From Methanobacteriota archaeon (GTDB lineage Archaea > Thermoplasmatota > Poseidoniia > Poseidoniales > Poseidoniaceae), in contig PAZU01000006.1 in NCBI GenBank assembly GCA_002715725.1, positions 1 to 50,806 on the forward strand: a stretch of DNA of 50,806 nt, read 5' to 3'. Shown piece after piece: positions 11,634-32,484 of the stretch (within the stretch, counting starts at the first letter, position 1; every line of letters begins with the position of its first letter). A model generated the notes under the pieces. The model saw only the letters and a list, made by a program, of their open reading frames with translations. It searched no databases and was not told the origin of the DNA. A program made the position numbers and the translations under genes.

Positions 11634-11704
11634 GGGATTCGATTACAAAACATGGTATTTGAACATGTGCACAAAATGTCAGCACCCCCTACGGGGGTAT
11701 TTCG

Positions 11705-11711
11705 TATAAAT
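11705..11711 (+). promoter_or_regulatory. Candidate TATA box for trmI
   Basis: TATAAAT lies 41-47 nt upstream of the trmI ATG in the 118-nt divergent spacer. Confidence 0.3.
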
Positions 11712-11751
11712 CGATGCGAATCGTTCTTGGTATATTCCTTCTCGCAGAACC

Positions 11752-17076: not shown

Positions 17077-17160
17077 ACCCAAACGGCCAATATTATCACC
17101 TATCAATTCTGTGTTTGTCGCAGCGATGACTTCATGTTCGAAAGTGTCACGCCCCTGTTC

Positions 17161-18595: not shown

Positions 18596-19327
18596 ATGCA
18601 ATGGGGTGCTGAAGATTGGCAGTTCGCTGATCTGTATATGCCAGATGAACCATCCCCGTATCAGAAAGATGAGGGCATCCCTTGTGTGATGCTGATTCAT
18701 GGTGGTTTTTGGAAGAAGAAATTCACTCTAGATTTGATGGCTCCAATTGCTGAAGATTTAGCTGAACAAGGAATTGCTGCATGGAATATCGAATTCAAAG
18801 GATGGGAGTCTGGCGATGAAGGAGTATGGATGGACACTCTTTCAGATGTGATGAGGGCCTGGGGCCAATTAGCATTATTACCGGGCATCGATATTGTGCG
18901 TTCGATGATTTTAGGACACTCCGCAGGAGGGCATTTAGCCCTGATGATGGCGGCGGTTGCAGAAAGAAAACCGTGGCTAACAATTGCACAAGCTCCTATA
19001 GCAGATATTGTAGCGGCAGATCACGCCAAATTATCTGACGACGGTGATGCAGTCCGCCGCTGGATGGGTTGTGCTCCTGAAGGAAACGAAGAGATGTGGC
19101 GGCGAGTAAATCCTGTTGATAATCCTCCCAAAACCTCAGTAGTTCTAATACATGGCAAGGCAGACGAAGATGTACCCTGGATTCAATCAGAATCCTACGC
19201 TAGAGCAATGAAAGCAAAGGGTGTTGAAATCCAAAAATTATGGTTACCTGGCGACCATTATTCCATCATTGATGTTGCCAGTGACGATTGGCTAACTCAA
19301 GTTGAAACAATCAGAGATTGGTTGTAA
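18596..19327 (+). CDS. Alpha/beta hydrolase, arylformamidase/esterase-like (HGGxW + GHSAGG)
   Basis: Oxyanion-hole motif VMLIHGGFW, nucleophile elbow LGHSAGGHLA, and late IHGKADEDVP / GDHYS (Asp/His). Alternative starts: ATG 18518 (53-nt overlap with aspS) or TTG 18572 (1 nt after the aspS stop). Confidence 0.8.
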   Translation: MQWGAEDWQFADLYMPDEPSPYQKDEGIPCVMLIHGGFWKKKFTLDLMAPIAEDLAEQGIAAWNIEFKGWESGDEGVWMDTLSDVMRAWGQLALLPGIDIVRSMILGHSAGGHLALMMAAVAERKPWLTIAQAPIADIVAADHAKLSDDGDAVRRWMGCAPEGNEEMWRRVNPVDNPPKTSVVLIHGKADEDVPWIQSESYARAMKAKGVEIQKLWLPGDHYSIIDVASDDWLTQVETIRDWL

Positions 19328-19340
19328 GGTTCAAAACCTT
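19326..19340 (+). terminator. Triloop hairpin overlapping the hydrolase stop codon
   Basis: AAGGTT-CAA-AACCTT, a 6-bp perfect stem starting within the TAA stop (19325-19327). Confidence 0.2.
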
Positions 19341-19358
19341 GCGCTGCTTGGCGTTGTT

Positions 19359-20144
19359 ATGGACTGGCTAGGAGACGACTTCCCTTTCTCAACTTCTGCT
19401 CTCTCTGGAAAGCACGCAATTGTATGTGGTGCTTCCAAAGGAATTGGGGCAGCAACTGCAAAAATGCTTGCTAAAGCAGGGGCAAAAGTTACTGCAGTCA
19501 GTAGGGATCCTCACAATTTAGTTGCTACTCTCGAGGGAGAGGGTCACACCGGAATTAGCCTTGATTTGGAGAATCAAGAAGCAATTGGCAAATTCATTTC
19601 TTCAATTGAAGAATGCCATATTCTAATCAATAATGCCGCAGGTCCTCCTGGCGGACCTTTGCTAGAAAATGACATCGAAGATTTCGACGCGCCGTTTAAG
19701 CGACACTTGCACGCTTCACACACTTTGGTCAAAGGCGTAGTGCCTATCATGGAGAAAGCAGGTATGGGCAGAATAGTGAACATCATCTCGACATCGGTTA
19801 GAGAGCCAATCCCAAACATTGGACTTTCAAACACATTGAGGGGCGCGATGGCATCTTGGGCTAAGTCCCTTTCACGCGAACTTCCCACCTGTATTACAAT
19901 CAACAATGTGCTTCCTGGATTTACTGATACCGACCGCTTAGGGTCACTGGCGTCCTCGATTAATTCCAAAACAGGAAAAAGCATTGAGGATATTCACGCC
20001 GGTTGGATGTCACAAGTTCCGATTGAAAGGCTGATTGACCCACTTGAAACCGGAGCTGCTGTCGCTTACCTTTGCATGCCTATTTCTGGCGGTATACGAG
20101 GCGTTTCACTAGCAGTAGATGGCGGCCGTATGCGCTCAATTTGA
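19359..20144 (+). CDS. Short-chain dehydrogenase/reductase family protein
   Basis: Rossmann motif VCGASKGIGAATAKMLAKAG, NNAAG, and IVNIISTS. At the position where YxxxK is expected I read SNTLR, so the catalytic tetrad looks non-canonical. Confidence 0.8.
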   Translation: MDWLGDDFPFSTSALSGKHAIVCGASKGIGAATAKMLAKAGAKVTAVSRDPHNLVATLEGEGHTGISLDLENQEAIGKFISSIEECHILINNAAGPPGGPLLENDIEDFDAPFKRHLHASHTLVKGVVPIMEKAGMGRIVNIISTSVREPIPNIGLSNTLRGAMASWAKSLSRELPTCITINNVLPGFTDTDRLGSLASSINSKTGKSIEDIHAGWMSQVPIERLIDPLETGAAVAYLCMPISGGIRGVSLAVDGGRMRSI

Positions 20145-20162
20145 GGTGATGATTTGGCGGAA

Positions 20163-20954: not shown

Positions 20955-20970
20955 TGTTGATACATCGAGC

Positions 20971-20991
20971 CCCTCTCCCTTAGGGAGAGGG
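20971..20991 (+). promoter_or_regulatory. Perfect 9-bp triloop hairpin whose 3' arm is the SD-like sequence of the next gene
   Basis: CCCTCTCCC-TTA-GGGAGAGGG. The 3' arm ends 6 nt before the GTG start at 20997. Confidence 0.35.
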
Positions 20992-20996
20992 ATTAG

Positions 20997-22208
20997 GTGG
21001 AGTTCGACATATTCTTCTCAATATCGCAGACTCCAGACCACAATGGATTCACTCCTAGTGAATCCGAAATGTTCGCTAATTATTATGCTCAATTAGAAGC
21101 AGCAGACCGTTTAGGATTCGGTGTTGCTTGGATTGCACAAGCACATTTGTCCACCCAAACTCAACAAGAGAACTCGAGTCCAGTAGTTCCTCATTGGAAG
21201 GGCGAAGTTGGTCTTTGCACTGATTTCTGCCAGTTGGCACTAGAATCATTTAGACGTACTAGCAGAATCGATGTAGGTTCTGCTGTTGTAAGTATTCTTG
21301 CCAGTGGCGGCCCTATTGCCCAAGCCGAAAGAATTGCTAACACAGTACAATTCCTTTCACACATGGATGTCAATCGTAAGTTGCACGTGGGATTCAGTGC
21401 AGGTAGGTTTGAATTCATGGCACGCCCATACGGTGTCGTTCCCAGGAATGTTGTAGAAGAGGCGGCTTGGCCGGCATTACGTGCTCAAATTTTCATGGAA
21501 GCAAGTGAGATTTTTCTTAGATTATTGAGAGGCGATACTATCAGGTCTGATGATATTAGAGAGACAGTAATGAATAGAGATAATTTCCGTTCTGATGAAG
21601 ATTGGAATAAAGTTCAAAATGCTGCGGGTGGCTTACCCGATGAAATCGAAATTGACAGACGGTACCAGTTCGAGGAAATCTCAATCGTTCCAAAAACATG
21701 GCCCAGAAATCAATTGGAATTAGTCGCTGGGACACATGATCCTAGAGCCCAAGAATTCGTCAACAAATTCATGCCAGTAAAGGTTTTCAATCTATCCATA
21801 ACTTCGCCCGAAGTGATTGATTCCACCCATGAGAGGATGAGTAAATTTTTCCACAAAGATGGCGGGGAGTGGCAAAGAAGAGATATGCCTCGTACAACAT
21901 TTGTTTTCCTCAATGCGGAGGAAGGGCTATCTCCTGAGGAACAATCGATTGCAGCACATGAAGAAGCTCGACTTGCTTTGGGTGAATATTGGAAGGCACT
22001 AGAAGGAACTCTTGACCCTTCGAAAGTGGAGAAAGCGGCAGATAACGCACTTATCGGTAATCCTGAGCAAGTCGCCAAGCAAGTTTTGGAAAGATTCCAT
22101 CCTGATGACCGTTTGATGTGCTGGTTCGATTTCTTCAATCACGATAGCGAACGAGTGGTTCGAAATATGGAAGCTTGGTGGAGCGAAGTCGTACCACTGC
22201 TGGGGTGA
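20997..22208 (+). CDS. Luciferase-like (LLM class) flavin-dependent oxidoreductase
   Basis: MEFDIFFSIS..., LGFGVAWIAQAHL (the family's GFD..W..EHH region) and C-terminal LIGNPEQVAKQVLER are typical of bacterial-luciferase-family TIM barrels. GTG start. Confidence 0.78.
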   Translation: MEFDIFFSISQTPDHNGFTPSESEMFANYYAQLEAADRLGFGVAWIAQAHLSTQTQQENSSPVVPHWKGEVGLCTDFCQLALESFRRTSRIDVGSAVVSILASGGPIAQAERIANTVQFLSHMDVNRKLHVGFSAGRFEFMARPYGVVPRNVVEEAAWPALRAQIFMEASEIFLRLLRGDTIRSDDIRETVMNRDNFRSDEDWNKVQNAAGGLPDEIEIDRRYQFEEISIVPKTWPRNQLELVAGTHDPRAQEFVNKFMPVKVFNLSITSPEVIDSTHERMSKFFHKDGGEWQRRDMPRTTFVFLNAEEGLSPEEQSIAAHEEARLALGEYWKALEGTLDPSKVEKAADNALIGNPEQVAKQVLERFHPDDRLMCWFDFFNHDSERVVRNMEAWWSEVVPLLG

Positions 22209-22212
22209 AATT

Positions 22213-23328
22213 TTGGATTTAAGGCACGACAAAAATTCTGCAGTTGCCCCTGGTAAACCAGGTTCTGCAATTTATCCAGATTCTCCACTTGGAGAGGATA
22301 TCGAAGGTATACCAACTGGCAGAGATGTAGAGTGGGAGCCATTGGTAGATTATCGTAGGAATGGAGTTTCTGAAACCACCATTCATGGCGCAGTAGCATG
22401 GTGCCATGGCGATGAGGTAATACATTCATTCGGTGGAAATGTTCTATGTTATGGAAGGTCAATGATGAAGCCATTCATGTTGAAGGCGTTCACAAAAGAG
22501 TTGGAAAACCATTCATGGGAGCAAAAAGCAATTTCTGTCGCTAGTCATAACGGGGATACTGAACACGTTGCTGCTGCTCAATCTATGCTCTCTGAGGCTG
22601 AATGGCCACTGATGCTTACCCCTGTGGATGTGCCACTCATTCAATTCGGTAGGCAGGTTAGAAGACCTAGGCGCTGGTATCATACCTGCAGCGGCGAGCA
22701 TGCTGCAATACTTGCAGGATGTAGGGCCAAAGGTTGGAATCGAGCGGGGTATACTCTTCCTACACACAAAGTATTCCACGCATACATGGAACAACTTAGA
22801 AGATTTCTTGGCAAGGATTGGAATCCACAAAGGATAGCTAAGGATGGGTGCGGTCTGCCAACAGTTTCGAACACTGTTGCAGAATTAGCCAAAATTTACG
22901 CAGGATTAGTTCAGGACAAAGATTCAGATTGGATTTGGGAAGCCATGTGCAAGAATCCTGATTTAGTTGGTGGATTCAATAGATTAGACTCGACAATTTT
23001 GAAAATCGGTAATGGTAAAGTTATCGCAAAAGAGGGTGCGGATGGCCTACTTGGAATGGCTATCGAGCACCCTGATTATCCGAATGGATTAGGAATTGTT
23101 GTTAAAATTGCACACGGCTGGAATTCACAGGCTACTTGGTATATCGCTAGAGCAATTTTAGGATGCTTAGGAATTGAATTACGAAACCCATATCCGCTGA
23201 ATAAACAAAAAGCGTTTATTGTCCCAGGAATAGTTCCAGATTCTCTACGCGGTGTACTAGAAACCATTCCGACGTGGGATGAGTGGGATCCGGACCAAGA
23301 CCGCTGGCATTACGAGGTGGATGCATGA
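22213..23328 (+). CDS. Asparaginase II family (Rhizobium-type, PF06089-like) amidohydrolase
   Basis: Collinear matches to the family as I recall it: TIHGAVAW, RSMMKPFM, ASHNGDTEH, CSGEHAAILAGCRA, KDGCGLPT, NPDLVGG, KEGADGLLG and GIVVKIAHG. TTG start at 22213 is uncertain. The stop overlaps the ALDH start (ATGA). Confidence 0.8.
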   Translation: MDLRHDKNSAVAPGKPGSAIYPDSPLGEDIEGIPTGRDVEWEPLVDYRRNGVSETTIHGAVAWCHGDEVIHSFGGNVLCYGRSMMKPFMLKAFTKELENHSWEQKAISVASHNGDTEHVAAAQSMLSEAEWPLMLTPVDVPLIQFGRQVRRPRRWYHTCSGEHAAILAGCRAKGWNRAGYTLPTHKVFHAYMEQLRRFLGKDWNPQRIAKDGCGLPTVSNTVAELAKIYAGLVQDKDSDWIWEAMCKNPDLVGGFNRLDSTILKIGNGKVIAKEGADGLLGMAIEHPDYPNGLGIVVKIAHGWNSQATWYIARAILGCLGIELRNPYPLNKQKAFIVPGIVPDSLRGVLETIPTWDEWDPDQDRWHYEVDA

Positions 23329-24704
23329 TCCAAGTCGAGAATTACATCGGTGGTGAATTCGTTACTTTGGGTGAAGATTTTGACGACATCTCACCGCTAG
23401 ATTTCTCGGTTATTGCCAAAGTTCCTCGAACTAGAAATGTCGATGATGCGGTTGATGCCGCTAAGAAGGCTCAACCTATGTGGGGTGCACTTAGTATCGA
23501 ACAGAGATGTGATTGGTTGGACAAAATTGCAAATGAACTCGAGAATCAAATCGAAGAAATTGCTCGTTTGGAATCAATGGATACTGGAAAACCACACCAT
23601 GTTGCATTGAATGTAGATGCATCTAGGTCTGTAAATAATTTCAGATTTTTTGCAGAGTTTGGACGCAACATGGAATCACAGACTTTCGAAATGTCAGATG
23701 CAACAAATTATGTCGTAAGAAAACCGATTGGTATTGTTGGATTAATTTCACCTTGGAATCTCCCATTGTACCTGCTATCTTGGAAGATAGCACCTGCCTT
23801 GTTAATGGGCAATTCAATAGTTGCTAAGCCAAGCGAAATCACGCCATTAACAGCACATTTCCTAGCAAATATTTGTTCCCAAGTTGGCCTACCTGCTGGT
23901 GTTTTGAACATTGTTCACGGTTATGGGCCAGAAGTAGGGCAAGCCATTGTTGAACATCCTGAAATCAAAGCAATATCCTTCACTGGCGGTACTTCAACCG
24001 GCAAGATAGTGGCTGCAACCGCCGCACCTATGTTCAAGAAATTAAGTCTTGAACTTGGTGGTAAGAATGCATCAATTGTATTGGAAGATGCTGATTTAGA
24101 CGTCGCGGTACCAGGTGTATTGCGAGCATCATTTCTCAACTCAGGGCAAATTTGCTTGTGCGGTTCACGTGTTTTGGTACATTCATCAATCTATGATGAA
24201 TTCATGGAAAGGTATCTCCAAGAATTGAAGAGTTTCGAAATAGGTCCAGTAATTAGTGACGAACACCGTTCAAAGGTTGTATCGTACATCGATTTGGCCA
24301 AGCAAGAAGGAGGTAATATCCTGGCCGGTGGAAATATTCCCGATAAGGTGGGTGCTTGGCTTGAGCCAACAGTGATCTCTGGACTTTCTCACACCTCTAG
24401 AACAGCCACAGAAGAAATCTTTGGACCAGTAGTTACTGTTCACCCATTCGATTCAGATGAAGAAGCGATTGAAATGGCAAACAGTACCCAATATGGGTTG
24501 GCAGGAAGTGTTTGGTCGAAGCGAAAAGGACGAAAAGTTGCAGAAAAGATTGATTCAGGTATGGTTTGGGTTAACACATGGCTGCATAGAGATTTACGCG
24601 TCCCATTCGGAGGAGTCAAAGACAGCGGCGTAGGGCGTGAAGGAGGAATGTGGTCTCTCGGTTTCTTCTCAGAAGCAGTCAATATTTGCGTCATGGAAGA
24701 TTGA
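23325..24704 (+). CDS. NAD(P)-dependent aldehyde dehydrogenase, 2-hydroxy/2-aminomuconic-semialdehyde dehydrogenase-like
   Basis: MIQVENYIGGEFV N-terminus, SPWNLPL, catalytic ELGGKNA and GQICLCGSR, and EEIFGPV. The LCGSR context and N-terminus resemble the XylG/DmpC/AmnC clade (recollection). The start ATG at 23325 overlaps the upstream stop. Confidence 0.88.
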   Translation: MIQVENYIGGEFVTLGEDFDDISPLDFSVIAKVPRTRNVDDAVDAAKKAQPMWGALSIEQRCDWLDKIANELENQIEEIARLESMDTGKPHHVALNVDASRSVNNFRFFAEFGRNMESQTFEMSDATNYVVRKPIGIVGLISPWNLPLYLLSWKIAPALLMGNSIVAKPSEITPLTAHFLANICSQVGLPAGVLNIVHGYGPEVGQAIVEHPEIKAISFTGGTSTGKIVAATAAPMFKKLSLELGGKNASIVLEDADLDVAVPGVLRASFLNSGQICLCGSRVLVHSSIYDEFMERYLQELKSFEIGPVISDEHRSKVVSYIDLAKQEGGNILAGGNIPDKVGAWLEPTVISGLSHTSRTATEEIFGPVVTVHPFDSDEEAIEMANSTQYGLAGSVWSKRKGRKVAEKIDSGMVWVNTWLHRDLRVPFGGVKDSGVGREGGMWSLGFFSEAVNICVMED

Positions 24705-24741: not shown

Positions 24742-25557
24742 ATGTCAGTCCATGCAAACGCTCGCAAAGTGACAACCCACACTCTTCAAGAAATGAAGAG
24801 AGCCGGTGAAAAAATCACAATGCTAACCGCCTATGACTTCAGTTTAGCTAAGTTGGTTGATAGAGGCGGCGTAGACGTAATTTTGGTAGGAGATTCCGCA
24901 TCAAACGTCATGGCTGGTAGAGATACAACTGTGCCAATGAGTCTCGAGCACATGATCTACCATGCTCAATGTGTTGAGCGTGCAGTCGATAGAGCATTGA
25001 TTGTAGTCGATATGCCATTCGGTTCTTACCAAGGAAATTCCGCAATTGCATTAGAGAGCGCTATTCGAATCATGAAAGAATCGGGTGGGCATGCAGTCAA
25101 GTTAGAAGGTGGTGCTGAAATTGTTGAAAGTATTCAGAGAATTTTGACAGCCGGTATCCCAGTTATGGGGCACTTGGGACTAACTCCTCAATCGATTTAC
25201 AAATTTGGAACTTATACTGTTCGTGCTAAAGAGGAAGAAGAGGCATCCAAATTGATTGCGGATGCTAAGTTACTGGAAGAAGCAGGTTGTTTCGCAGTAG
25301 TTCTAGAGAAAATACCTGCTCATTTGGCTAAACAGGTAAGTGAAGCCTTGTCGATACCAACTATTGGAATCGGTGCTGGACAGAATTGTGACGGTCAGGT
25401 TTTGGTACTGCACGATATGCTAGGAATCACTACAGATTTCAGCCCGAGATTCCTGCGCAGATATCTTGACTTGGAGAGTAAAATTACTGGAGCTGTAGAA
25501 CAGTATTGTGAAGATGTTAGAACTGGAGACTTCCCTAACGAAGAAGAATCTTACTGA
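24742..25557 (+). CDS. panB: 3-methyl-2-oxobutanoate hydroxymethyltransferase (ketopantoate hydroxymethyltransferase)
   Basis: [46 protein letters not shown] and LEKIP are canonical PanB motifs. Confidence 0.92.
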
Positions 25558-26018
25558 GTAAGCGTGGCAATTAACATTGCACCAGGTAGAATACAGGATG
25601 CAATTCCGAAGCCGTGCCATATCCCGTAACGGAATGGAGGATGGTTTTGTTTTGACCAAGAAGCGCATTGCCAAATCCAAATTAGAAATGGAATTGCAAT
25701 GTTGAAATAATTAGGACCTAATACCCAAAATACAGCCATTGGGATGCAAACTACTGCAACTCCAAAAGCATGCTCTCTTATGTCTCCAGAATCAGTAAGT
25801 ATGGCGAGTAATGGAGCGAAAACCACCGATGCAACTAATGCGATCATCATCGGAGGGAATTTATTTTCATTCAGAGTAAGTACACTAACAGCAACTAGGG
25901 AAATAGCGAATATCGAAGGCCACACCACGTGGCGCAACTTCAAGTCAGGTCTCTCTCCCATATTTTGGGCCAAGAGTAGCCGATGAATAGAAGATGCGGA
26001 ACCTTTTGGTCGTGTCAT
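25551..26018 (-). CDS. Hypothetical 4-TM membrane protein
   Basis: A 155-aa hydrophobic ORF fills the only minus-strand gap in the cluster. Its 3' end overlaps panB by 7 nt. Its tracked ATG overlaps the amnB-like ATG (CATG), so the true start may be an internal Met. No family recognised. Confidence 0.45.
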
Positions 26019-26910
26019 GGCGAAGGGGAGTATTGTTGCTGGCTGCCTTGCACCGCATCCACCACATTTGGTTTATGCAGATAACCCTGAGCAAAATGAA
26101 CCGGTCTCAGAAGGGGGCTGGGAGCAACTTAGATGGGGTTATGAGAGGTTGCGAGAATCTCTGGAAGATGTTGATTATGACGTTATTGTAATTCTTTCTC
26201 CTCACTGGCAAACATATGTTGGTACACACTTCATCGGTGTAGAGAAGTGTTCTTCCAAGAGTGTAGACCCGGTTTTTCCAAATCTATTCCGTTTTAATTA
26301 TGATTTGGCAATAGATGTTGAATTAGCAGAGGCAATCCATGACCAAGCTAAATCTGGAGGAATGTCAGTCAAGATGATGACTAATCCCGATTTCAGAGTT
26401 GACTATGGAACGATTGTTTCTTGTCATATGGTCAGGCCTGAATGGGATAAACCGATAGTATCCATTTCTTCTAATCGTAGTCTGTCCTACTATTCAGTAG
26501 AGGTAATGCAGGAAATGATGATTGAACTCGGAAAATCCACTGCCAGAGCGATAGAAGAGAGTGGTAAGAAGTGTCTCTTGATTGCAAGTAATTCACTCTC
26601 ACATCGTCATTTCGTAACAGAAACTAATCCTCCCGAAGATATGAGCAAAGAACACATTACAAGTCATGCAATGCATTTGTGGGATATGCGAATGATTGAG
26701 ATGATGCGCCAAGGAAAATCTCAGCAAATTATCAATGAGATGCCTGAATTCTGTGAACAAGCAATTGCAGAAACAGATGGAGGTGCACTCACTTGGCTGT
26801 TATCGGCGATGGGTGTTCCTAGTGAGCCTGCAATCTTGCATGGCTATGGAACAATTATTGGAACTGGTAATGCAATTATGGAATGGCCATGTCGAAACTG
26901 GGGTGCTTGA
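26017..26910 (+). CDS. LigB-superfamily (class III) extradiol dioxygenase, 2-aminophenol 1,6-dioxygenase beta-subunit-like
   Basis: GCLAPHPPHLVYADNPEQNEP, ILSPHW, SVDPVFPNLFRFNY, DVELAEA, DFRVDYGT, PEDMSKEH, WDMRMIEMMRQGK and GTGNAIMEW closely follow what I remember of AmnB/NbzCb. Metal-ligand His residues are present (HPPH, SPHW). Confidence 0.85.
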   Translation: MAKGSIVAGCLAPHPPHLVYADNPEQNEPVSEGGWEQLRWGYERLRESLEDVDYDVIVILSPHWQTYVGTHFIGVEKCSSKSVDPVFPNLFRFNYDLAIDVELAEAIHDQAKSGGMSVKMMTNPDFRVDYGTIVSCHMVRPEWDKPIVSISSNRSLSYYSVEVMQEMMIELGKSTARAIEESGKKCLLIASNSLSHRHFVTETNPPEDMSKEHITSHAMHLWDMRMIEMMRQGKSQQIINEMPEFCEQAIAETDGGALTWLLSAMGVPSEPAILHGYGTIIGTGNAIMEWPCRNWGA

Positions 26911-28293
26911 ATGACAGGCGAGGTAATCAAATCGCTAATTGTGCCTGCGCATCCCCATCCAGTTTTATGTCCAGAAAAAAACGAAGGTTGGCAAAGAGTT
27001 CGGGATGCTTATGATGGTGCCCGAAAACAAATCGAAGAGAGCGATGCAGACCTGATTATTGTCTATTCAACTCTGTGGCCTAGTGTGATAGGGCACCAAA
27101 TTCAAGCAGATCCCAACCCAGAATGGGTGATGGTAGATGCGGACTTCCACGATTTGGGGAGTATTCACTATTCATTGAAAATTGATACAGAATTTGCGGA
27201 AGCATGGAATCAGGCCAATATCAAACGTGGTTTAGAGTCTAGAACAGTTGCTTATCATGGCTTTCCAGTTGATGTCGGTTCAGTTGTTGCTTTAGAACTA
27301 CTAAATCCTAATAATAGAATTCCAGCAGTAATCTGCTCTACGAATGTCTACTCTAACAGAGCCGAGACTACAGTACTCGCCAAAGCATGTATGGATGTAG
27401 TAAAGGCTCAAGGCAAAAAGGTGGTTGCAGTTTCCGTAATGTCACTATCAAACAGAATGTTCACAGAACCGATTGAGCCCCACGAAGACAGGATTCACTC
27501 GCTGAAAGATGACGAGTGGAATCGCAAAATTTTGGAATTCCTATCTGAAGGCCGCTTGGAAGATGTCGGACAACTTAGCCGAACAATCCATGACCAAATC
27601 CGAGTTAAGAAAGTTGTAGCATTCAAACCAATGTGGTGGCTTTCTGCCATGAATGATAATCGTAATGATTTGACAGGACAGGTACTGGCCTATGAACCAA
27701 TTCATGGAGCAGGAGCAGCAGTTGTTGTATTAGATCCGGAGTCTAATGGAACCGGCGATAAGGAATACGATGAGGATGATGTCGAATTCTATGGCGGTGA
27801 CAGAAATGTGTTAGAATCAGACCTAGAAGAGAATGGAACTGTTAACTCGGGTCCAGCATTGTATGACCCCGTTGAAGGTGCTAATGCGGTTAACACCAGT
27901 AAAGCGCCTAAACCAGTTGGGGCCTACCCCCATGCAAGAAGAGAAGGCGACCTGATTTATCTGTCAGGAGTTGGTCCAAGGCAGCCAGGAGATAATTCGA
28001 TACCGGGTGGGCCTATCAAAGACTCAAATGGCAATCCTTTGAATTATGACATTAAAGCTCAAACAAGAGCAGTGGTAGATAATATTGCTAGAATATTAGA
28101 AGAGGCCGGTTCTTCACTAGAGAAAGTTATTGACGTAACCTCCTTTTTAGTAGATATGGATCGTGATTTTTCAGGATACAATGAAGTTTGGGCTGAAACA
28201 CTCGGTAAAGTAGGGCCTACTCGTACAACACTTGCAATTAGAGCATTACCAACACCTATTGCTGTAGAGATGAAAGTAATCGCCAAAGTTTGA
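26911..28293 (+). CDS. Fusion: AmnA-like (non-catalytic LigB-fold alpha subunit) + acidic linker + RidA/YjgF-family deaminase domain
   Basis: N-terminal ~285 aa are LigB-like, but VYSTLW replaces SPHW (second His ligand lost, as in alpha subunits); YHGFPVD and EDRIHSLKDDEWNRKILEF are also present. The C-terminal ~125 aa are RidA-like (KPVGAYPHARREGDLIYLSGVGP ... GPTRTTLAIRALPTPIAVEMKVIA). The ATG directly follows the upstream TGA. Confidence 0.82.
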   Translation: MTGEVIKSLIVPAHPHPVLCPEKNEGWQRVRDAYDGARKQIEESDADLIIVYSTLWPSVIGHQIQADPNPEWVMVDADFHDLGSIHYSLKIDTEFAEAWNQANIKRGLESRTVAYHGFPVDVGSVVALELLNPNNRIPAVICSTNVYSNRAETTVLAKACMDVVKAQGKKVVAVSVMSLSNRMFTEPIEPHEDRIHSLKDDEWNRKILEFLSEGRLEDVGQLSRTIHDQIRVKKVVAFKPMWWLSAMNDNRNDLTGQVLAYEPIHGAGAAVVVLDPESNGTGDKEYDEDDVEFYGGDRNVLESDLEENGTVNSGPALYDPVEGANAVNTSKAPKPVGAYPHARREGDLIYLSGVGPRQPGDNSIPGGPIKDSNGNPLNYDIKAQTRAVVDNIARILEEAGSSLEKVIDVTSFLVDMDRDFSGYNEVWAETLGKVGPTRTTLAIRALPTPIAVEMKVIAKV

Positions 28294-28420
28294 TTTCCGC
28301 TATCCGGGGTTTTTCGGCGTCAATGTGTAGTAAACAATAACTACCAATTGCGCTTGATTAGCAATAACGGTGTAGTACCGGTCGTAAAAAGGAAATTTGT
28401 TCGCCACAGGAGAGTTTTCA

Positions 28421-29848
28421 ATGGACATCAAATCTACAACTGGCAAGTTGCTAAAAGGCGACATTTCAGGGGTTGTATCTGACGTAAAATCTCAAATTAA
28501 ACGCTCTTTGAGTCTAATCGGAGTTATCATCGTTACAGTTGCAGCAAGCATTGGCGCTGGACTGTTTGTGTTGCCATCATTTGCTGTAGCAATAATGGGG
28601 CCAGGTATTTGGTTGGCCTTCTTGATTGCAGGAATTGTGTTCCTGCCCGGTGCGCTTTCTAAATCAGAATTGTCCTCGGCTATGCCGGTCAATGGCGGTG
28701 CTTATGTCTATGTTGAGCGTTCATTCGGTCCATTGGTTGGAACAATTAGTGGGCTGGGGCTATGGGCCTCCTTTTTGCTGAAATCTGCTTTCGCATTGAT
28801 TGGTTTTTCAGCATATATGTACGCGGTAACAAACTATCTCGACATTTCAACCAATACAACTCTTGTAATTATGGCAGCGCTAGTTCTAATTACTGTTCTG
28901 AACATTTTTGGAATCAAAAAAGTGAAGGCATTTCAAACACCAATTCTAGCGCTTACAACCGCTGTAATCCTAATCATTTGTTTGATTCAATTATTCGATG
29001 CGAACATCGATTTTTCTCGTCCGATTGATGGTGCATTCGATGTATCGAGAAATGACCCGATTTTGGTAGCCGAATCTGCGGCATTAGTCTTTGTTGCATA
29101 TGCAGGCATATACAAGGCTGGAGCCATTGGTGGAGAAGTTAAGGAACCAGAAAAGAACCTGCCTAAGGGCATGTTAATCTCTCTCTTACTGATTACTCTT
29201 CTCTATGTGATTATTACTTTCATCATGATGGCATCGGTTGATGTTGAAACTATGCTTAATTCTGATGGTTCAGCTAGGGAAGATCCGATTTTTGCTTTTG
29301 TCGATGTAATAGCATCTACTAATATTGGGTTAATGGTGGCATTATTAGCTGTTCTAACCATGGTCTCAGGTGCTTTATCTGGACTATTGGCAGCATCTCG
29401 TTTCCTGTTTGGGATGGCAAAGGACAGTTTGTTGCCAGGAACCTTAGGAGAAACAAACAACAAATTTGGAACTCCTCACTGGGCGATAATTATTACAGGT
29501 ATTACTATGGCAATTTCCATAATTACACTCCCTGTAAAGGATGTAGCCAAATTAGCATCCGGTTTCCAAATAATGGTTATTGTTGCATTGAATATCAGTG
29601 TGGTTATTTTACGAAGTGAAAATCCAAAACACGATTGGTACAAACCTACTTTCAAATCTCCACTGTTCCCATGGGTTCAGATTATTGGTACAGTTATAGG
29701 TGGTTACTTGGTATTCATCATGGGAGAGAAAGCGATTATTGGAGCAGTTGCAGCCATCGTAATTGGTGTCGCTACTTACTACATATATGGCAAAAAGAAT
29801 CACCAACTAAAACAATCAATGAGCGTTTCTTCTAATGAAGAAGAATGA
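28421..29848 (+). CDS. APC-superfamily amino acid/polyamine permease
   Basis: About 12 TM segments with family-typical VIIVTVAASIGAGLFVLPS and ELSSAMPVNGGAYVYV. ATG 28421 is preceded by AGGAGAG. The tracked ORF starts at TTG 28397. Confidence 0.88.
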   Translation: MDIKSTTGKLLKGDISGVVSDVKSQIKRSLSLIGVIIVTVAASIGAGLFVLPSFAVAIMGPGIWLAFLIAGIVFLPGALSKSELSSAMPVNGGAYVYVERSFGPLVGTISGLGLWASFLLKSAFALIGFSAYMYAVTNYLDISTNTTLVIMAALVLITVLNIFGIKKVKAFQTPILALTTAVILIICLIQLFDANIDFSRPIDGAFDVSRNDPILVAESAALVFVAYAGIYKAGAIGGEVKEPEKNLPKGMLISLLLITLLYVIITFIMMASVDVETMLNSDGSAREDPIFAFVDVIASTNIGLMVALLAVLTMVSGALSGLLAASRFLFGMAKDSLLPGTLGETNNKFGTPHWAIIITGITMAISIITLPVKDVAKLASGFQIMVIVALNISVVILRSENPKHDWYKPTFKSPLFPWVQIIGTVIGGYLVFIMGEKAIIGAVAAIVIGVATYYIYGKKNHQLKQSMSVSSNEEE

Positions 29849-32437
29849 CTATGACATTCTAGTCCATTCACCAGATTCACTAACTAGCCAAGATGTTAAT
29901 TGTCCATCCGAGTCAATATACCATCCTGTCTTTCCTTGTTCAGTACCAGGAGCGGCTTGCATTACTCCTGTTCTCTTTGCTTCAGCAGCTAATCTTGCTC
30001 GCAAATCCTCCTTAGATTCAGATGGCTGTTCTTCTGTTGTTTCTGCAACTACAGGTACAGGTTCACTCTTCACTTCAGGTTCTTCAATGATTTCTTCCTG
30101 ATGGGTTTCTTCTGCAATTGAATCTTCTTCTTCGTATTCTTCATACTCATCTTCCCAGTAATCAACATCATCTTGATCACCTTTCAATCTGCGAATTAAT
30201 ACTACCATTATGGCAATGAAAAGGAATACGATAATCGAGACCATTGTTAAGGCGGTATTTGAGTCACCAAGACCCCCACCAAACAATACTGCATCAACAT
30301 CGAAGAAACGTTGTGCAACTAAGTCATCCCAGTAAGCATTGCATGATTGAGACTGCCCTGATTGGTCGATTGATACCTCATATGTGTCTCCTGCTAAGTG
30401 CGTGGCAGGTCCAGTAGTACACTTGATTGTGACATCCGCAGGTGGAACTTCTATCCTATTTCCGGCTTGGTCAATTGCATGAATTCTGATAATCATGCTA
30501 CTACCTTCTTCTGGGTTTTGCTCCGGAATATCTGCAAGTAGTCGAACTGCTTGGCCTGGCGAAACAACCACAGCAATGTCTTGTGTTGCAGAACCAGTTG
30601 TTAATCGCAAGTTCCATTCCCCTGCCTCTCCTCCTGTTACAACCCAGTATCCATCTCCCTTCGAAGATGGAGAAACAACACCTTGTGGGTCTTCAAACTC
30701 AAATGTAATATCGGATGCTAAAGCGACATTTCCATGAACATCTAATGTAGAGATTTTGATCTCAACATTTTCGGCACTAGCTACTTCTATTCCATCATCA
30801 AAATCAGTAGAAATATGTCTCGCAGTACCTGCAATAACTTCAACATCTGTAATTGCGAAAACTCCTTGTGACATCGCTCGGATTTCGTGCATTCCGATAC
30901 TTGATGGAGCCCAACGGTCACCTGCAAGGCGAATTTCCATAGTCATATCAATATCATCAATGACCCAAGTAACCAATACTTCGTCGATGACATTACCATA
31001 TTCATCTTCGAAAATCGGTTGAAGTTCTAAAACTCCGTCCGAGGGCACCCTTGTACCGCTTTCTGGCAGAACGATTCTTGCTAATTCTCCAGATGTTACA
31101 TGGACAATAGATTCAACTTCATGAACAAGTTGCGTTTCATTGTCAAACCAGGTGGCAGAGATTGTGAAATTGCCTATGGGGCCTGGTCTGAGTTCCATCC
31201 AATCGCCTTGGTCAACAGCAGATAATTCACTAGGAATTGTCCAAGCACCGTCAACAGCACGTTGATTTCCAGCAGCATCGTAAGCTGAGATAGATGCAAC
31301 AACTAATTCTCCGGATTTTAGCACATTTTCGGATAACAAAATCTCGATTCCAGTAACTTCACCTTGAATGACATTGACTTGCATTGTTGCAGAGAATCCT
31401 TGGTCATTAACTCCAATTGTCCAATCACCAATCTTGGATGGAATCCAAACTACTGAATCACCCTCCATTGAAAGAGAGCCAGTTGGAACCGTCCAGTTTG
31501 CGAGAGGGAGTACGACTTCACCTGAATTCCCAAGAACATCAGTTCGAATCGCTGACAGTGTCACAGGAGAACCGGTTCGTGCTTGAGTAACATCCATTTC
31601 GATATCCAGCCCAGTCGCTTGTGCTGGCAAAACGCGAATCACTCCACTGCCGAATGCTCCCGATGTACTGTTTACGCTGATATTCCACACTCCCGGTGCT
31701 CCTCCAAAGTAAATCCCCGATGGCGAAATTGAACCATTTTCAGAATTCCATGTCAATTCTCCAGCTTTCGATATTCCCACTTCATTGCCTCTAGCATCTT
31801 TGGCAACAGGGATAATGTGTATGGTGTTGCCACTTTGTACAGTTAGGCCAAATGGTATTTCTAGGGAAGTTGGATTGCCCGGGACTACATTGAATACTAC
31901 CTGAATTTCCAATTCAAGATAGATTATTCTCATCACAGCACTACCAACTTCATCGGGTTTCCATGTCATGTTGTCATAGTCGATTTCTCCGTTTTGACAT
32001 CTCCATGTTAAATCACCAGATACAGGATTGCCTGCCCGATCTACTAAAGTTGCGTTAAGAGATATTGTATCATCAATACTCACTTCTGTTAGATTAAATC
32101 CAGATTGAATTCCGACTGGCCAGCCTGCAGTTACTTGAACATTAGTCGTTGAATTGACAGTTCCACTAGTTGCAGTGATAATTGTTTGACCAACCATGCC
32201 TGGAGTAAATAGGCCATCAGAATCGATAGTTCCAGAACTTGCAGACCAAGTTATTTGTTCGTTGATTGGGTTACCTGAGTTGTCTTTGACCACAGCTGTA
32301 AATCTGATGGCTTGATCAGCACTCACAGTTTGTTGATGCGAATCTATGTCAATACTTGCAGGGCTAGATGCCAAAACCGGTGATGAAATTTGAACAAGCA
32401 ACAGGGTGACCAGTAAGGAAAGAATTGCCTTTCTCAC
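29849..32437 (-). CDS. Surface protein with tandem Big_2-like Ig domains, C-terminal TM and long acidic cytoplasmic tail
   Basis: Signal peptide (LLVTLLLVQISSPVLASS). Repeated Ig-like units follow the pattern ..F.A...D..GN.I.....W..S.G.I...G.F. TM (MVSIIVFLFIAIMVVLI), 114-aa tail ending TGWYIDSDGQLTSWLVSESGEWTRMS. GTG start. Confidence 0.85.
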   Translation of the reverse strand: MRKAILSLLVTLLLVQISSPVLASSPASIDIDSHQQTVSADQAIRFTAVVKDNSGNPINEQITWSASSGTIDSDGLFTPGMVGQTIITATSGTVNSTTNVQVTAGWPVGIQSGFNLTEVSIDDTISLNATLVDRAGNPVSGDLTWRCQNGEIDYDNMTWKPDEVGSAVMRIIYLELEIQVVFNVVPGNPTSLEIPFGLTVQSGNTIHIIPVAKDARGNEVGISKAGELTWNSENGSISPSGIYFGGAPGVWNISVNSTSGAFGSGVIRVLPAQATGLDIEMDVTQARTGSPVTLSAIRTDVLGNSGEVVLPLANWTVPTGSLSMEGDSVVWIPSKIGDWTIGVNDQGFSATMQVNVIQGEVTGIEILLSENVLKSGELVVASISAYDAAGNQRAVDGAWTIPSELSAVDQGDWMELRPGPIGNFTISATWFDNETQLVHEVESIVHVTSGELARIVLPESGTRVPSDGVLELQPIFEDEYGNVIDEVLVTWVIDDIDMTMEIRLAGDRWAPSSIGMHEIRAMSQGVFAITDVEVIAGTARHISTDFDDGIEVASAENVEIKISTLDVHGNVALASDITFEFEDPQGVVSPSSKGDGYWVVTGGEAGEWNLRLTTGSATQDIAVVVSPGQAVRLLADIPEQNPEEGSSMIIRIHAIDQAGNRIEVPPADVTIKCTTGPATHLAGDTYEVSIDQSGQSQSCNAYWDDLVAQRFFDVDAVLFGGGLGDSNTALTMVSIIVFLFIAIMVVLIRRLKGDQDDVDYWEDEYEEYEEEDSIAEETHQEEIIEEPEVKSEPVPVVAETTEEQPSESKEDLRARLAAEAKRTGVMQAAPGTEQGKTGWYIDSDGQLTSWLVSESGEWTRMS

Positions 32438-32484
32438 AAAAATCCCCTTTATCCCATTAGTCTCTACCGTTGTTTAGGTTTCGA

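What the first reader, a model, noticed from the sequence alone, without database searches (positions are those of the whole stretch)
26911..28293. Rosetta-stone fusion of a non-catalytic extradiol dioxygenase subunit with a RidA-type deaminase
This one ORF joins three parts. The first is a LigB-fold domain that has lost the second His ligand (VYSTLW where the upstream paralogue has SPHW). The second is a ~55-aa acidic low-complexity linker (DPESNGTGDKEYDEDDVEFYGGDRNVLESDLEENG...). The third is a complete RidA/YjgF domain with the conserved Arg context (GPTRTTLAIRALP). In the bacterial pathway the dioxygenase (step 1) and the deaminase (step 3) are separate proteins, with the ALDH acting between them. 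A covalent link implies a complex that would hold the labile enamine and semialdehyde intermediates, which otherwise cyclise to picolinate. Translational coupling with the catalytic subunit (TGA immediately followed by ATG at 26908-26913) supports a heteromer.
Basis: partly seen in the sequence, partly recalled or inferred. Interest (0 to 1): 0.65.

Follow-up and report, generated by a model that had tools for sequence, protein, structure and literature searches.

The report
Fused dioxygenase subunit and aminomuconate deaminase
This archaeal gene really does join the iron-free helper subunit of a 2-aminophenol ring-opening dioxygenase to the deaminase that acts two steps later; the fusion is conserved in hundreds of marine Poseidoniales archaea and also in bacteria, and I found no paper describing it or testing what it does.

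Summary
ORF 26911-28293 (460 aa) has an N-terminal domain most like AmnA/CnbCa, the non-catalytic alpha subunit of 2-aminophenol 1,6-dioxygenase. Its C-terminal domain is an AmnD/AmnE-type RidA (2-aminomuconate deaminase) with every active-site cleft residue conserved. The upstream 297-aa gene is a complete catalytic AmnB (56% identical to Pseudomonas AmnB), and its stop codon abuts the fusion's start. An AMSDH-type aldehyde dehydrogenase lies 2.2 kb upstream.

The fusion is not an assembly artefact. It is uninterrupted in 80 of 80 fetched Poseidoniales genomes and in independent metagenome contigs.

It is not specific to archaea. The same fusion occurs in bacteria such as Oligoflexus tunisiensis, within the same operon (SDR, luciferase-like monooxygenase, asparaginase-II-like, ALDH, AmnB, fusion). 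That operon lacks the classical lower meta-cleavage genes. Unfused versions also exist.

The "low-complexity linker" is only partly that. Residues 280-302 form a strictly conserved acidic motif specific to Poseidoniales, and only residues 303-313 vary.

The idea that the fusion channels intermediates is plausible but untested, and the fusion joins steps 1 and 3, not consecutive steps. Verdict: a new variant of a known kind, of moderate interest.

The parts
26017..26910 (+). amnB-like gene: the catalytic beta subunit of a 2-aminophenol-1,6-dioxygenase-type extradiol dioxygenase (297 aa). It keeps the Fe ligands His14/His63/Glu252 and the second-sphere residues Tyr130/His196.
   Evidence: PDB sequence search gives 8ihg_A at E 2e-113 and 3vsg_B at 5e-110. 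It is 56% and 54% identical to AP-3 AmnB and CnbCb, with the ligand columns conserved.
26908..26913 (+). Stop/start junction TGA|ATG between amnB and the fusion gene, in the same frame in this window.
   Evidence: Read directly from the sequence. In 79 related loci the gap is -4 (ATGA overlap, 38 loci), +2 (25), -1 (8), +1 (7) or 0 (1). Tight coupling is therefore conserved, but the in-frame arrangement is not.
26911..27735 (+). AmnA-like domain (aa 1-275): LigB fold, the non-catalytic alpha subunit. The ligand positions hold Ala13/Leu55/Lys233.
   Evidence: Pfam LigB. The best PDB sequence hits are alpha subunits: 3vsg_A at 4e-43, 7txy_A and 8ihg_B. Foldseek gives 3vsg_A a TM-score of 0.88 normalised to the target. 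The ligand columns are shown.
27748..27816 (+). Conserved acidic motif G-x-G-D-K-E-Y-D-E-D-D-V-E-x-Y-x-G-x-R-x-V-L-(D/E), aa 280-302. It is predicted to be disordered in the monomer. It may be a docking segment.
   Evidence: E285, Y286, D287, E288, D289, V291, G296, R298, V300 and L301 are invariant in 81 Poseidoniales sequences. The motif is present in 118 of 122 archaeal fusions and 0 of 121 bacterial fusions. pLDDT is about 46-52.
27817..27849 (+). Hypervariable tether (aa 303-313) with an insertion hot-spot after aa 306.
   Evidence: Column identity is 0.19-0.33. The whole inter-domain stretch is 43-72 aa across the loci. An in-frame +GTC variant occurs after position 27830 in an independent contig.
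27850..28290 (+). Conserved lead-in (GPxL[W/Y]xP) followed by an AmnD/AmnE-type RidA domain (Pfam aa 330-459). It is the putative 2-aminomuconate deaminase. Cleft residues are Ser352, Gly353, Asp408, Asn424, Arg438, Glu453 and Lys455.
   Evidence: Pfam PF01042 at 1e-24. The best PDB hit is AmnE 6izh at 2e-27, and the long Lp2 loop is shared with it, whereas generic RidAs need a 13-aa gap. The cleft residues are conserved in nearly all of the 243 fused sequences.
23325..24704 (+). AMSDH/AmnC-like aldehyde dehydrogenase, the probable step 2. The start was re-set to the ATG that overlaps the stop of the preceding gene.
   Evidence: The top seven PDB hits are all 2-aminomuconate-6-semialdehyde dehydrogenases (435-462 bits), and the next hit scores 378 bits. 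An ATGA overlap lies at 23325-23328.
20997..23328 (+). Luciferase-like monooxygenase (20997-22208) and an asparaginase-II-family hydrolase (22213-23328). Both are conserved operon partners whose role is unknown.
   Evidence: Pfam. Orthologues sit in the same order in Oligoflexus (46% and 60% identity) and in L081. The LLM-AsnII-ALDH block moves as a unit among Poseidoniales loci.
19302..20144 (+). Short-chain dehydrogenase/reductase, a conserved operon partner in the bacterial relatives.
   Evidence: Pfam adh_short_C2. It is 44% identical to the Oligoflexus operon's SDR.

Best explanation
The 460-aa protein is a natural fusion of AmnA and an AmnD/AmnE-type RidA enzyme. AmnA is the iron-free alpha subunit of a 2-aminophenol-1,6-dioxygenase-type enzyme. 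The RidA domain is a 2-aminomuconate deaminase.

The fusion is made together with the translationally coupled catalytic subunit AmnB, and the two should form the usual alpha/beta dioxygenase. With the nearby AMSDH-like ALDH this gives three steps:
1. AmnB opens an o-aminophenol ring to give 2-aminomuconic semialdehyde.
2. The ALDH oxidises the semialdehyde to 2-aminomuconate.
3. The fused RidA domain hydrolyses 2-aminomuconate to 2-oxohex-3-enedioate plus ammonia.

Shown here: the domain identities, the loss of ligands in alpha and their retention in beta, an intact RidA cleft, conservation of the fusion, and the operon context.

Inferred: the enzyme activities; that the fusion fixes a 1:1 stoichiometry and places the deaminase on the dioxygenase; and the assembly state. 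RidA active sites lie between subunits of a trimer, and alpha-beta pairs dimerise through beta, so the smallest closed assembly would be alpha6-beta6.

The physiological substrate is unknown. The operon (SDR, luciferase-like monooxygenase, asparaginase-II-like hydrolase, plus a cyclase/formamidase in bacteria) differs from the classical amn cluster. This suggests the aminophenol is produced from some other nitrogen-containing aromatic compound.
For: - Domain calls: Pfam; PDB sequence hits to alpha subunits at 4e-43, AmnE at 2e-27 and AmnB at 2e-113. The Foldseek search of the AF2 model (mean pLDDT 78.6) ranks alpha subunits first (TM-score 0.88 to 3vsg_A); AmnE (TM-score 0.86) is its best RidA-family hit by E-value.
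- Ligands: beta has His14/His63/Glu252 and alpha has Ala13/Leu55/Lys233. None of the 243 fused proteins has His/His/Glu at these positions, while the Arg438, Glu453, Lys455, Asn424, Asp408 and Gly353 columns are essentially invariant.
- The ALDH groups with AMSDH structures.
- The fusion is intact in 80 of 80 Poseidoniales loci and always abuts amnB. Independent contigs show no frameshift.
- The same fusion sits in the same six-gene operon in Oligoflexus tunisiensis and in L081, at 41-60% identity gene by gene.
- A split version exists in L087, in the order AmnB, AmnA, a 134-aa ORF, RidA, ALDH.
- Independent fusions place the same RidA subtype directly after the ALDH: ALDH+RidA, ALDH+3xRidA, and ACMSD+ALDH+RidA in haptophytes.
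- Literature: alpha and beta subunits are insoluble when expressed alone and form alpha2-beta2 through beta (PMC10470539). AmnE's conserved residues line the inter-subunit clefts (PMC6742747).
Against: - No activity, complex or substrate has been measured.
- The fusion links non-consecutive steps, and the intermediate most at risk (the semialdehyde) is handled by an unfused enzyme.
- The lower meta-cleavage genes (4-oxalocrotonate decarboxylase, hydratase, aldolase) are absent from the 50.8-kb window, so what happens to the product is unknown.
- Arg56, which AmnE needs to form its hexamer, is Asn375 here, so the back-to-back hexamer is not assured.
- The RidA domain scores below the NCBIfam cut-offs for canonical RidA (82 against 106 bits). 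This fits a specialised subfamily but leaves its specificity unproven.
- RNA evidence is thin: four short metatranscriptome contigs, one of them a partial match and another lying upstream of the fusion in the TPR gene.
Confidence: 0.75

Rival explanations
1. The step order is different. The fused RidA domain acts directly on the dioxygenase product. It would hydrolyse the imine tautomer of 2-aminomuconic semialdehyde to 2-hydroxymuconic semialdehyde before that compound can cyclise to picolinate, and the ALDH would then oxidise the hydroxy compound. The fusion would then join consecutive steps.
For: Fusions usually join consecutive steps. The semialdehyde is the intermediate that is lost to picolinate (PMC10470539). 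The ALDH's best NCBIfam model is 2-hydroxymuconic semialdehyde dehydrogenase, at 537 bits, which is below that model's cut-off.
Against: By PDB comparison the ALDH is closest to the 2-aminomuconate-6-semialdehyde dehydrogenases. The same RidA subtype is fused downstream of the ALDH, and of ACMSD+ALDH, in other lineages, which places it after the ALDH. Its closest characterised relative, AmnE, is a 2-aminomuconate deaminase.
Confidence: 0.12
2. The RidA domain is mainly structural or a general scavenger. It would act either as a trimerisation handle that organises or stabilises the dioxygenase, or as a generic imine scavenger that protects it. It would not be a dedicated pathway step.
For: Alpha and beta subunits are poorly soluble on their own. 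Joining a dimer-forming part to a trimer-forming part forces higher-order assembly. 2-aminomuconate deaminates spontaneously, with a half-life of about 160 min.
Against: All catalytic cleft residues are conserved in nearly all of the 243 fused sequences, which implies selection for catalysis. The domain is of the AmnE type, with the extended Lp2 loop, rather than the housekeeping RidA type. A fungal enzyme of this type does not hydrolyse a generic imine.
Confidence: 0.08
3. The fusion is an artefact of assembly or gene calling, caused by a missed stop or frameshift between two genes.
For: None was found. Before checking, this was a fair concern because the window comes from an uncultured organism.
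Against: The fusion is a continuous ORF of 451-483 aa in 80 of 80 loci from different studies. Contigs from independent runs show zero frameshifts. More than 1500 database proteins score E<=1e-20 against a bacterial fusion, and the 120 listed all have both Pfam domains, among them the protein of the cultured bacterium Oligoflexus tunisiensis, on a 7.6-Mb contig.
Confidence: 0.01

Closest known systems
2-aminophenol 1,6-dioxygenase AmnAB/CnbCaCb together with 2-aminomuconate deaminase AmnD/AmnE (Pseudomonas sp. AP-3, Comamonas CNB-1; PDB 8IHG, 3VSG-3VSJ, 6IZH)
   Same: The enzyme parts are the same. There is a catalytic beta subunit with the His/His/Glu triad, an iron-free LigB-like alpha subunit, an AMSDH-type ALDH, and a RidA-family deaminase with the extended Lp2 loop and the conserved cleft.
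   Different: In those bacteria alpha and the deaminase are separate proteins, encoded in an amn operon that also carries the lower meta-cleavage genes. Here they form one polypeptide. The operon partners are an SDR, a luciferase-like monooxygenase and an asparaginase-II-like hydrolase, and there are no lower-pathway genes nearby. Alpha is only 34% identical to CnbCa.
ARO bacterial microcompartment of Actinobacteria (PMC10470539; PDB 7TXY)
   Same: The upper pathway is the same (AmnAB, ALDH, deaminase). The apparent problem is also the same: co-localising these enzymes so that the semialdehyde is not lost to picolinate.
   Different: Co-localisation there is achieved with a protein shell and encapsulation peptides. 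Here it would be achieved, if at all, by a covalent fusion. No shell genes were seen in the window.
Tandem 3xRidA proteins (Niehaus et al. 2015, PMC4433059)
   Same: They show that RidA domains tolerate fusion and that the functional unit is a trimer.
   Different: Those proteins fuse RidA to itself. This protein fuses one RidA domain to a different enzyme's subunit, so trimerisation has to happen between chains.
Bacterial LigB+RidA fusion proteins named 'Rid family hydrolase' (for example Oligoflexus tunisiensis, 501 aa)
   Same: They have the same architecture, the same adjacent AmnB and the same operon. The domains are 46-59% identical to the window's.
   Different: Their linkers are 11-61 aa, not notably acidic, and lack the Poseidoniales motif. 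A cyclase/formamidase (PF04199) gene follows the fusion. None of them is characterised either.

Membership tests
AmnA/CnbCa (non-catalytic alpha subunit of 2-aminophenol 1,6-dioxygenase, LigB superfamily) | LigB fold | tested here: met
   Pfam PF02900 at 49.5 bits, above the 26.3-bit cut-off. Foldseek TM-score 0.88 to 3vsg_A.
AmnA/CnbCa (non-catalytic alpha subunit of 2-aminophenol 1,6-dioxygenase, LigB superfamily) | Closer to alpha subunits than to beta subunits | tested here: met
   Alpha chains score 120-151 bits and beta chains 87-97 bits.
AmnA/CnbCa (non-catalytic alpha subunit of 2-aminophenol 1,6-dioxygenase, LigB superfamily) | Lacks the His/His/Glu iron triad and the Tyr/His second sphere | tested here: met
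   The positions hold Ala13/Leu55/Lys233 and Val122/Asn181. No fused homologue has the triad.
AmnA/CnbCa (non-catalytic alpha subunit of 2-aminophenol 1,6-dioxygenase, LigB superfamily) | Encoded next to a complete catalytic beta subunit | tested here: met
   The 297-aa AmnB carries the full triad and abuts the fusion gene. The same holds in all related loci that reach far enough upstream to show it.
AmnA/CnbCa (non-catalytic alpha subunit of 2-aminophenol 1,6-dioxygenase, LigB superfamily) | Forms an alpha2-beta2 enzyme that cleaves 2-aminophenol | not testable with these tools
   This needs protein expression and an assay. A pseudo-complex model could not be built.
AmnD/AmnE/NbaF-type 2-aminomuconate deaminase (RidA/YjgF family) | RidA fold with the conserved cleft residues (AmnE Ser35, Gly36, Glu88, Arg117, Lys135) | tested here: met
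   PF01042 at 87 bits. Ser352, Gly353, Asp408 (Glu to Asp), Arg438 and Lys455, plus Glu453, are conserved in nearly all of the 243 sequences.
AmnD/AmnE/NbaF-type 2-aminomuconate deaminase (RidA/YjgF family) | Extended Lp2 loop that distinguishes AmnE from housekeeping RidA | tested here: met
   The domain aligns to 6izh through the loop with only single-residue gaps, whereas generic RidAs need a 13-residue gap. 6izh scores 99 bits and the next hit 76 bits.
AmnD/AmnE/NbaF-type 2-aminomuconate deaminase (RidA/YjgF family) | Genomic association with a 2-aminomuconate-semialdehyde dehydrogenase | tested here: met
   An AMSDH-like ALDH sits in the same conserved gene block. The same RidA type is fused to such ALDHs elsewhere.
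AmnD/AmnE/NbaF-type 2-aminomuconate deaminase (RidA/YjgF family) | Back-to-back homohexamer stabilised by Arg56 | tested here: inconclusive
   Arg56 aligns to Asn375. The hydrophobic base residues Leu125/Pro126/Pro128 are kept as Leu446/Pro447/Pro449.
AmnD/AmnE/NbaF-type 2-aminomuconate deaminase (RidA/YjgF family) | Accelerates deamination of 2-aminomuconate | not testable with these tools
   This requires an enzyme assay.
Canonical housekeeping RidA (TIGR00004 / PRK11401) | Score above the NCBIfam curated cut-off | tested here: not met
   82.3 bits against a 106.25-bit cut-off, and 32.4 bits against 222.
Classical amn/nba/cnb meta-cleavage operon | Lower-pathway genes (4-oxalocrotonate decarboxylase, 2-oxopent-4-enoate hydratase, aldolase, acetaldehyde dehydrogenase) in the cluster | tested here: not met
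   None was found among 36 Pfam-scanned ORFs of the window. They are also absent from the called genes of the Oligoflexus and L081 loci.
Rosetta-stone fusion | The two parts are separate proteins in other genomes and are functionally linked | tested here: met
   They are separate in the PDB source organisms and in L087. Both belong to the 2-aminophenol pathway according to the literature.

The most novel reading that the evidence does not exclude
Joining a part that pairs through beta (a two-fold contact) to a part that must trimerise (a three-fold contact) makes the protein self-assemble into a defined alpha6-beta6 or larger particle. In Poseidoniales, the invariant acidic motif in the linker (aa 280-302) would be a docking peptide that recruits the AMSDH. 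The result would be a shell-less metabolon doing the job that Actinobacteria do with the ARO microcompartment. It would serve a still-unknown pathway for a nitrogen-containing aromatic compound in one of the most abundant groups of archaea in the surface ocean.
Probability: 0.2. Interest if true: 0.75.

Novelty: new variant of a known kind. Interest (0 to 1): 0.5.

Why it matters
Both halves belong to well-studied enzyme families, but the full-text searches made here found no paper describing their fusion, and databases label it only "Rid family hydrolase" or "hypothetical protein". The fusion gives genome-level evidence that the ring-cleaving dioxygenase and the deaminase work in physical association.

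The finding also shows that Poseidoniales (Marine Group II), which are very abundant and have not been cultured, stably carry an upper 2-aminophenol-type cleavage module. That module sits in an operon shared with Bdellovibrionota and distinct from the pollutant-degradation clusters, which points to an unrecognised natural substrate.

The dimer-plus-trimer geometry and the clade-specific conserved linker motif give concrete hypotheses that can be tested about how pathways with labile intermediates are organised without a compartment.

Tried and rejected
- **Assembly artefact.** Rejected after checking 80 loci and independent contigs.
- **A second catalytic dioxygenase.** The idea that the N-terminal domain is itself catalytic was rejected, because all ligand positions are substituted.
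- **Linker made by repeat expansion.** No tandem repeat was found.
- **Stop-codon read-through.** An in-frame TGA could in principle yield a beta-alpha-RidA protein, but the in-frame arrangement occurs in only 1 of 79 related loci, so it was rejected.
- **Recent horizontal transfer into this genome.** The GC content of the operon genes (0.42-0.47) matches the window's (0.435), so there is no sign of it.
- **Single origin of the fusion.** A neighbour-joining tree of alpha domains gave two fused clades that were not sisters. It had no support values, so the question is left unresolved.
- **Modelling the beta/alpha-RidA complex.** A hand-joined sequence produced an alignment in which the beta homologues were laid on the alpha part. 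No prediction was submitted.
- **Unfused AmnA with the acidic tail (P0128).** It lies on a 1.5-kb contig that ends 26 nt after the gene, so it is uninformative.
- **Locus L089.** This is an unfused cluster with LLM and AsnII, but its 'beta' lacks both His ligands and its AsnII gene is split. It was treated as low quality or degenerate.
- **Expression.** The RNA runs gave only four short contigs.
- **Literature.** Searches for the fusion, for Poseidoniales or Marine Group II plus aminophenol, and for the operon partners found nothing specific.
Full report
**1. The observation**

ORF 26911-28293 (+, 460 aa) and the preceding ORF 26017-26910 (+, 297 aa) are present exactly as described. The upstream TGA directly abuts the downstream ATG. 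Pfam places LigB (PF02900) on residues 18-271 and Ribonuc_L-PSP/RidA (PF01042) on residues 330-459 of the 460-aa protein, and LigB on the 297-aa protein. All three hits are above the curated cut-offs. The window is archaeal, since it encodes TFIIB, LonB, RFC and an archaeal A24 peptidase. Its close relatives are all Poseidoniales (Marine Group II) MAGs.

**2. Is the fusion real?**

A scan of one genome per species returned 577 stretches that encode relatives. The best 80 are all from Poseidoniales and match the query over residues 1-460. In every one of the 80 the reading frame runs uninterrupted for 451-483 codons. In 79 of them amnB lies immediately upstream. The gap between its stop and the fusion's start is -4 nt (38 loci), +2 (25), -1 (8), +1 (7) or 0 (1).

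Logan contigs from independent runs tell the same story. A 13.7-kb contig of 2014 and a 5.5-kb contig of 2025 cover the region, along with pieces from a 2024 run. They show substitutions only, plus one in-frame 3-nt insertion in the variable part of the linker. A frameshift-made fusion is therefore excluded.

Evidence of transcription is weak. It consists of four short metatranscriptome contigs, two of which lie on 28105-28255 and 28276-28426.

**3. What the parts are**

*The 297-aa protein.* It is a bona fide AmnB. Its E-value is 2e-113 to the Pseudomonas sp. AP-3 beta subunit (8IHG_A) and 5e-110 to CnbCb, with 56% and 54% identity. The iron ligands of the Comamonas enzyme are His13, His62 and Glu251, and the second-sphere residues are Tyr129 and His195 (PMC5291488 citing Li et al. 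2013). All five are present here as His14, His63, Glu252, Tyr130 and His196.

*The N-terminal domain of the 460-aa protein.* It matches alpha subunits best: 3VSG_A at 4e-43, then 7TXY_A and 8IHG_B. Beta subunits score 30-60 bits lower. At the five positions above it has Ala13, Leu55, Lys233, Val122 and Asn181. The known alpha subunit CnbCa has Gly, Gln, Asp, Thr and Gly at the same positions. None of the 243 full-length fused homologues has the triad.

*The C-terminal domain.* Its best PDB match is AmnE, the 2-aminomuconate deaminase of strain AP-3 (6IZH; 2e-27, 99 bits; the next RidA scores 76 bits). It aligns through AmnE's unusually long Lp2 loop with only single-residue gaps, whereas generic RidAs need a 13-residue gap. 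The cleft residues highlighted for AmnE are Ser35, Gly36, Glu88, Arg117 and Lys135 (PMC6742747). They correspond to Ser352, Gly353, Asp408, Arg438 and Lys455. These residues, together with Asn424 and Glu453, are conserved in nearly all of the 243 fusions. The domain scores below the NCBIfam cut-offs for canonical RidA, as expected for a specialised subfamily.

*Structure model.* An AlphaFold2 model (mean pLDDT 78.6) has two well-predicted domains. Residues 281-313, between the domains, are among the low-confidence segments. The Foldseek search of the model ranks alpha subunits first (TM-score 0.88 to 3VSG_A); AmnE (TM-score 0.86) is its best RidA-family hit by E-value.

**4. The linker**

The inter-domain stretch is acidic (about 30% D/E), but it is not a featureless tether. 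Across 81 Poseidoniales sequences, residues 280-302 (G-x-G-D-K-E-Y-D-E-D-D-V-E-x-Y-x-G-x-R-x-V-L-D/E) include ten invariant positions. Only residues 303-313 are hypervariable, with an insertion hot-spot after residue 306. A conserved G-P-x-L-W/Y-x-P then leads into the RidA domain.

The motif occurs in 118 of 122 archaeal fusions and in none of 121 bacterial fusions. The bacterial linkers are 11-61 aa long and about 12% D/E. A conserved, acidic segment that is predicted to be disordered looks like a short docking motif. Its partner is unknown.

**5. Context and distribution**

In Poseidoniales the neighbourhood is conserved. The order is (SDR), TPR protein, luciferase-like monooxygenase (LLM), asparaginase-II-family hydrolase (AsnII), ALDH, PanB, a small membrane protein on the other strand (present in some genomes), AmnB, the fusion, and an amino-acid permease.

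The ALDH's seven best PDB matches are all 2-aminomuconate-6-semialdehyde dehydrogenases (435-462 bits, against 378 bits for the next family). Steps 1, 2 and 3 of the upper 2-aminophenol pathway are therefore all encoded here.

A search of 1.8 billion representative proteins found other fused clusters at 40-52% identity. A follow-up search showed that the fusion is common in bacteria. Examples are the cultured Oligoflexus tunisiensis (501 aa, named "Rid family hydrolase"), Oligoflexus sp. and Bdellovibrionales MAGs. In that follow-up, 1554 proteins scored E<=1e-20 against the bacterial fusion, and the 120 listed all carry both Pfam domains.

In Oligoflexus the genes form one tight operon: SDR, LLM, AsnII, ALDH, AmnB, fusion, and a cyclase/formamidase (PF04199). 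L081 has the same six genes without the cyclase. The window's proteins are 39-60% identical to these, gene by gene. The cyclase was not found in any Poseidoniales locus.

None of the classical lower meta-cleavage genes is present in the window or in these loci. GC content is uniform across the window, so the operon is a long-standing resident of this lineage.

Unfused counterparts exist. L087 carries AmnB, AmnA (282 aa, 38% identical), a 134-aa ORF, RidA (146 aa, 42% identical, with the long loop) and ALDH. The characterised Pseudomonas and Comamonas systems also have separate proteins. The Rosetta-stone criterion is thus met.

**6. Independent fusions of the same RidA subtype**

RidA domains 41-59% identical to this one are fused to other enzymes of the same pathway:
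- the C-terminus of AMSDH-like ALDHs (P0264 and several fragments);
- an ALDH followed by three tandem RidA domains (P0126; its ALDH is 51% identical to the window's);
- ACMSD plus ALDH in the haptophytes Chrysochromulina parva and C. tobinii.

These fusions place the deaminase directly after the ALDH. They support the canonical step order and the assignment as a 2-aminomuconate deaminase. The three-domain version also fits the view that the working unit is a trimer.

**7. How it most likely works**

*Shown.* The locus encodes a catalytic AmnB, an iron-free AmnA domain covalently joined to an AmnE-type deaminase domain, and an AMSDH-like ALDH. All are conserved together.

*Inferred from the families.* AmnB and AmnA form the dioxygenase. 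In the actinobacterial enzyme neither subunit is soluble alone, and two alpha-beta pairs join through their beta subunits (PMC10470539). RidA active sites lie in clefts between the subunits of a trimer (PMC6742747). A chain that carries both an alpha domain and a RidA domain must therefore satisfy a two-fold and a three-fold contact at once. The smallest closed solution is alpha6-beta6, made of two RidA trimers bridged by three alpha2-beta2 units. Open networks are the alternative.

*The benefit is not shown.* It could be fixed stoichiometry, co-localisation, or recruitment of the ALDH. The compound that cyclises to picolinate is the semialdehyde, which the unfused ALDH handles. 2-aminomuconate decays with a half-life of about 160 min at pH 7.6. 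The fusion helps with the labile step only if the ALDH joins the complex. The conserved acidic motif is a candidate for recruiting it, but that is speculation.

**8. Rivals**

- An altered order in which the RidA domain deaminates the semialdehyde first. This is possible, but the ALDH's affinities and the ALDH-RidA fusions count against it.
- A mainly structural or scavenging RidA domain. This is disfavoured by the near-invariant catalytic residues.
- An artefact. This is excluded.

**9. Comparison with what is known, and novelty**

The protein works like AmnA plus AmnD/AmnE and passes every sequence-level membership test for both. It fails the test for canonical RidA, and its locus fails the test for a classical amn operon.

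The closest functional analogy is the ARO microcompartment of Actinobacteria, which encloses the same three enzymes.

The library searches found no paper that describes the fusion, the operon, or an aminophenol-type pathway in Marine Group II. The Rid-family survey of 2015 mentions fusions only in general terms. The library does not cover most subscription journals, so this absence is not proof. Public databases already hold the protein under generic names.

I class it as a new variant of a known kind. Interest is moderate (0.5). It is real, ancient, and abundant in the ocean, and it has an unexplained conserved motif and an unknown substrate. It remains a fusion of two known enzymes from one known pathway.

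Noticed in passing
P0264, P0126 (locus L090), P0237/P0425 (Chrysochromulina; KOO23627.1): The same AmnE-like RidA subtype is fused elsewhere to an AMSDH-like ALDH, to an ALDH followed by three tandem RidA domains, and, in haptophyte algae, to ACMSD plus ALDH. The haptophyte protein joins three consecutive steps of the kynurenine pathway in one 1014-aa chain.
   Followed up: partly
window 19302-24704 with 26017-28293; loci L081 and L084: A conserved operon of SDR, luciferase-like monooxygenase, asparaginase-II-family hydrolase, AMSDH-like ALDH, AmnB and AmnA::RidA is shared by Poseidoniales and Oligoflexus at 44-60% identity. The bacteria add a PF04199 cyclase/formamidase. It differs from the classical amn clusters, and its substrate is unknown.
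   Followed up: partly
homologues of window 26017-26910 (for example P0438, P0493, P0534): NCBI names several Poseidoniales AmnB homologues 'tRNA U-34 5-methylaminomethyl-2-thiouridine biosynthesis protein'. These proteins are 73-78% identical to a clear AmnB, so the name looks like a misannotation.
   Followed up: no
P0182, P0198: These proteins join a branched-chain amino-acid ABC-transporter permease domain (PF02653) to an AmnA-like LigB domain.
   Followed up: no
window 43589-43717 (+): Rfam finds a tRNA (52 bits) that spans 129 nt against a 71-position model, so it probably contains an intron of about 58 nt. ARAGORN reported no tRNA anywhere in the window.
   Followed up: no
window 26016-26019: The start codons of the minus-strand 155-aa membrane-protein ORF (25551-26018) and of amnB (26017) overlap (tgtCATGgcg), which leaves no intergenic promoter space. 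The membrane ORF is found in only about half of the related loci, and its true start may lie further downstream.
   Followed up: no
window 15847-17205 (-): The S-adenosylmethionine synthetase here matches the three Pfam domains of the bacterial/eukaryotic type (PF00438, PF02772, PF02773), although the window is archaeal.
   Followed up: no
window 24742-25557 (+): In Poseidoniales, panB (ketopantoate hydroxymethyltransferase) sits between the ALDH and amnB. It is absent from the bacterial versions of the operon.
   Followed up: no
locus L089, 2227-7621: This is a divergent unfused cluster (LLM, ALDH, AmnB-like, AmnA-like, AsnII). Its 'beta' protein has Cys and Ser in place of both His ligands, and its AsnII gene is split into two ORFs. 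It may be decaying or misassembled.
   Followed up: partly
window 8250-15789 and 29849-41541 (-): There are very large predicted surface proteins of 1127, 1090, 862 and 3018 aa. The 862-aa and 3018-aa proteins each have a membrane-spanning segment near the C-terminus followed by a strongly acidic tail.
   Followed up: no
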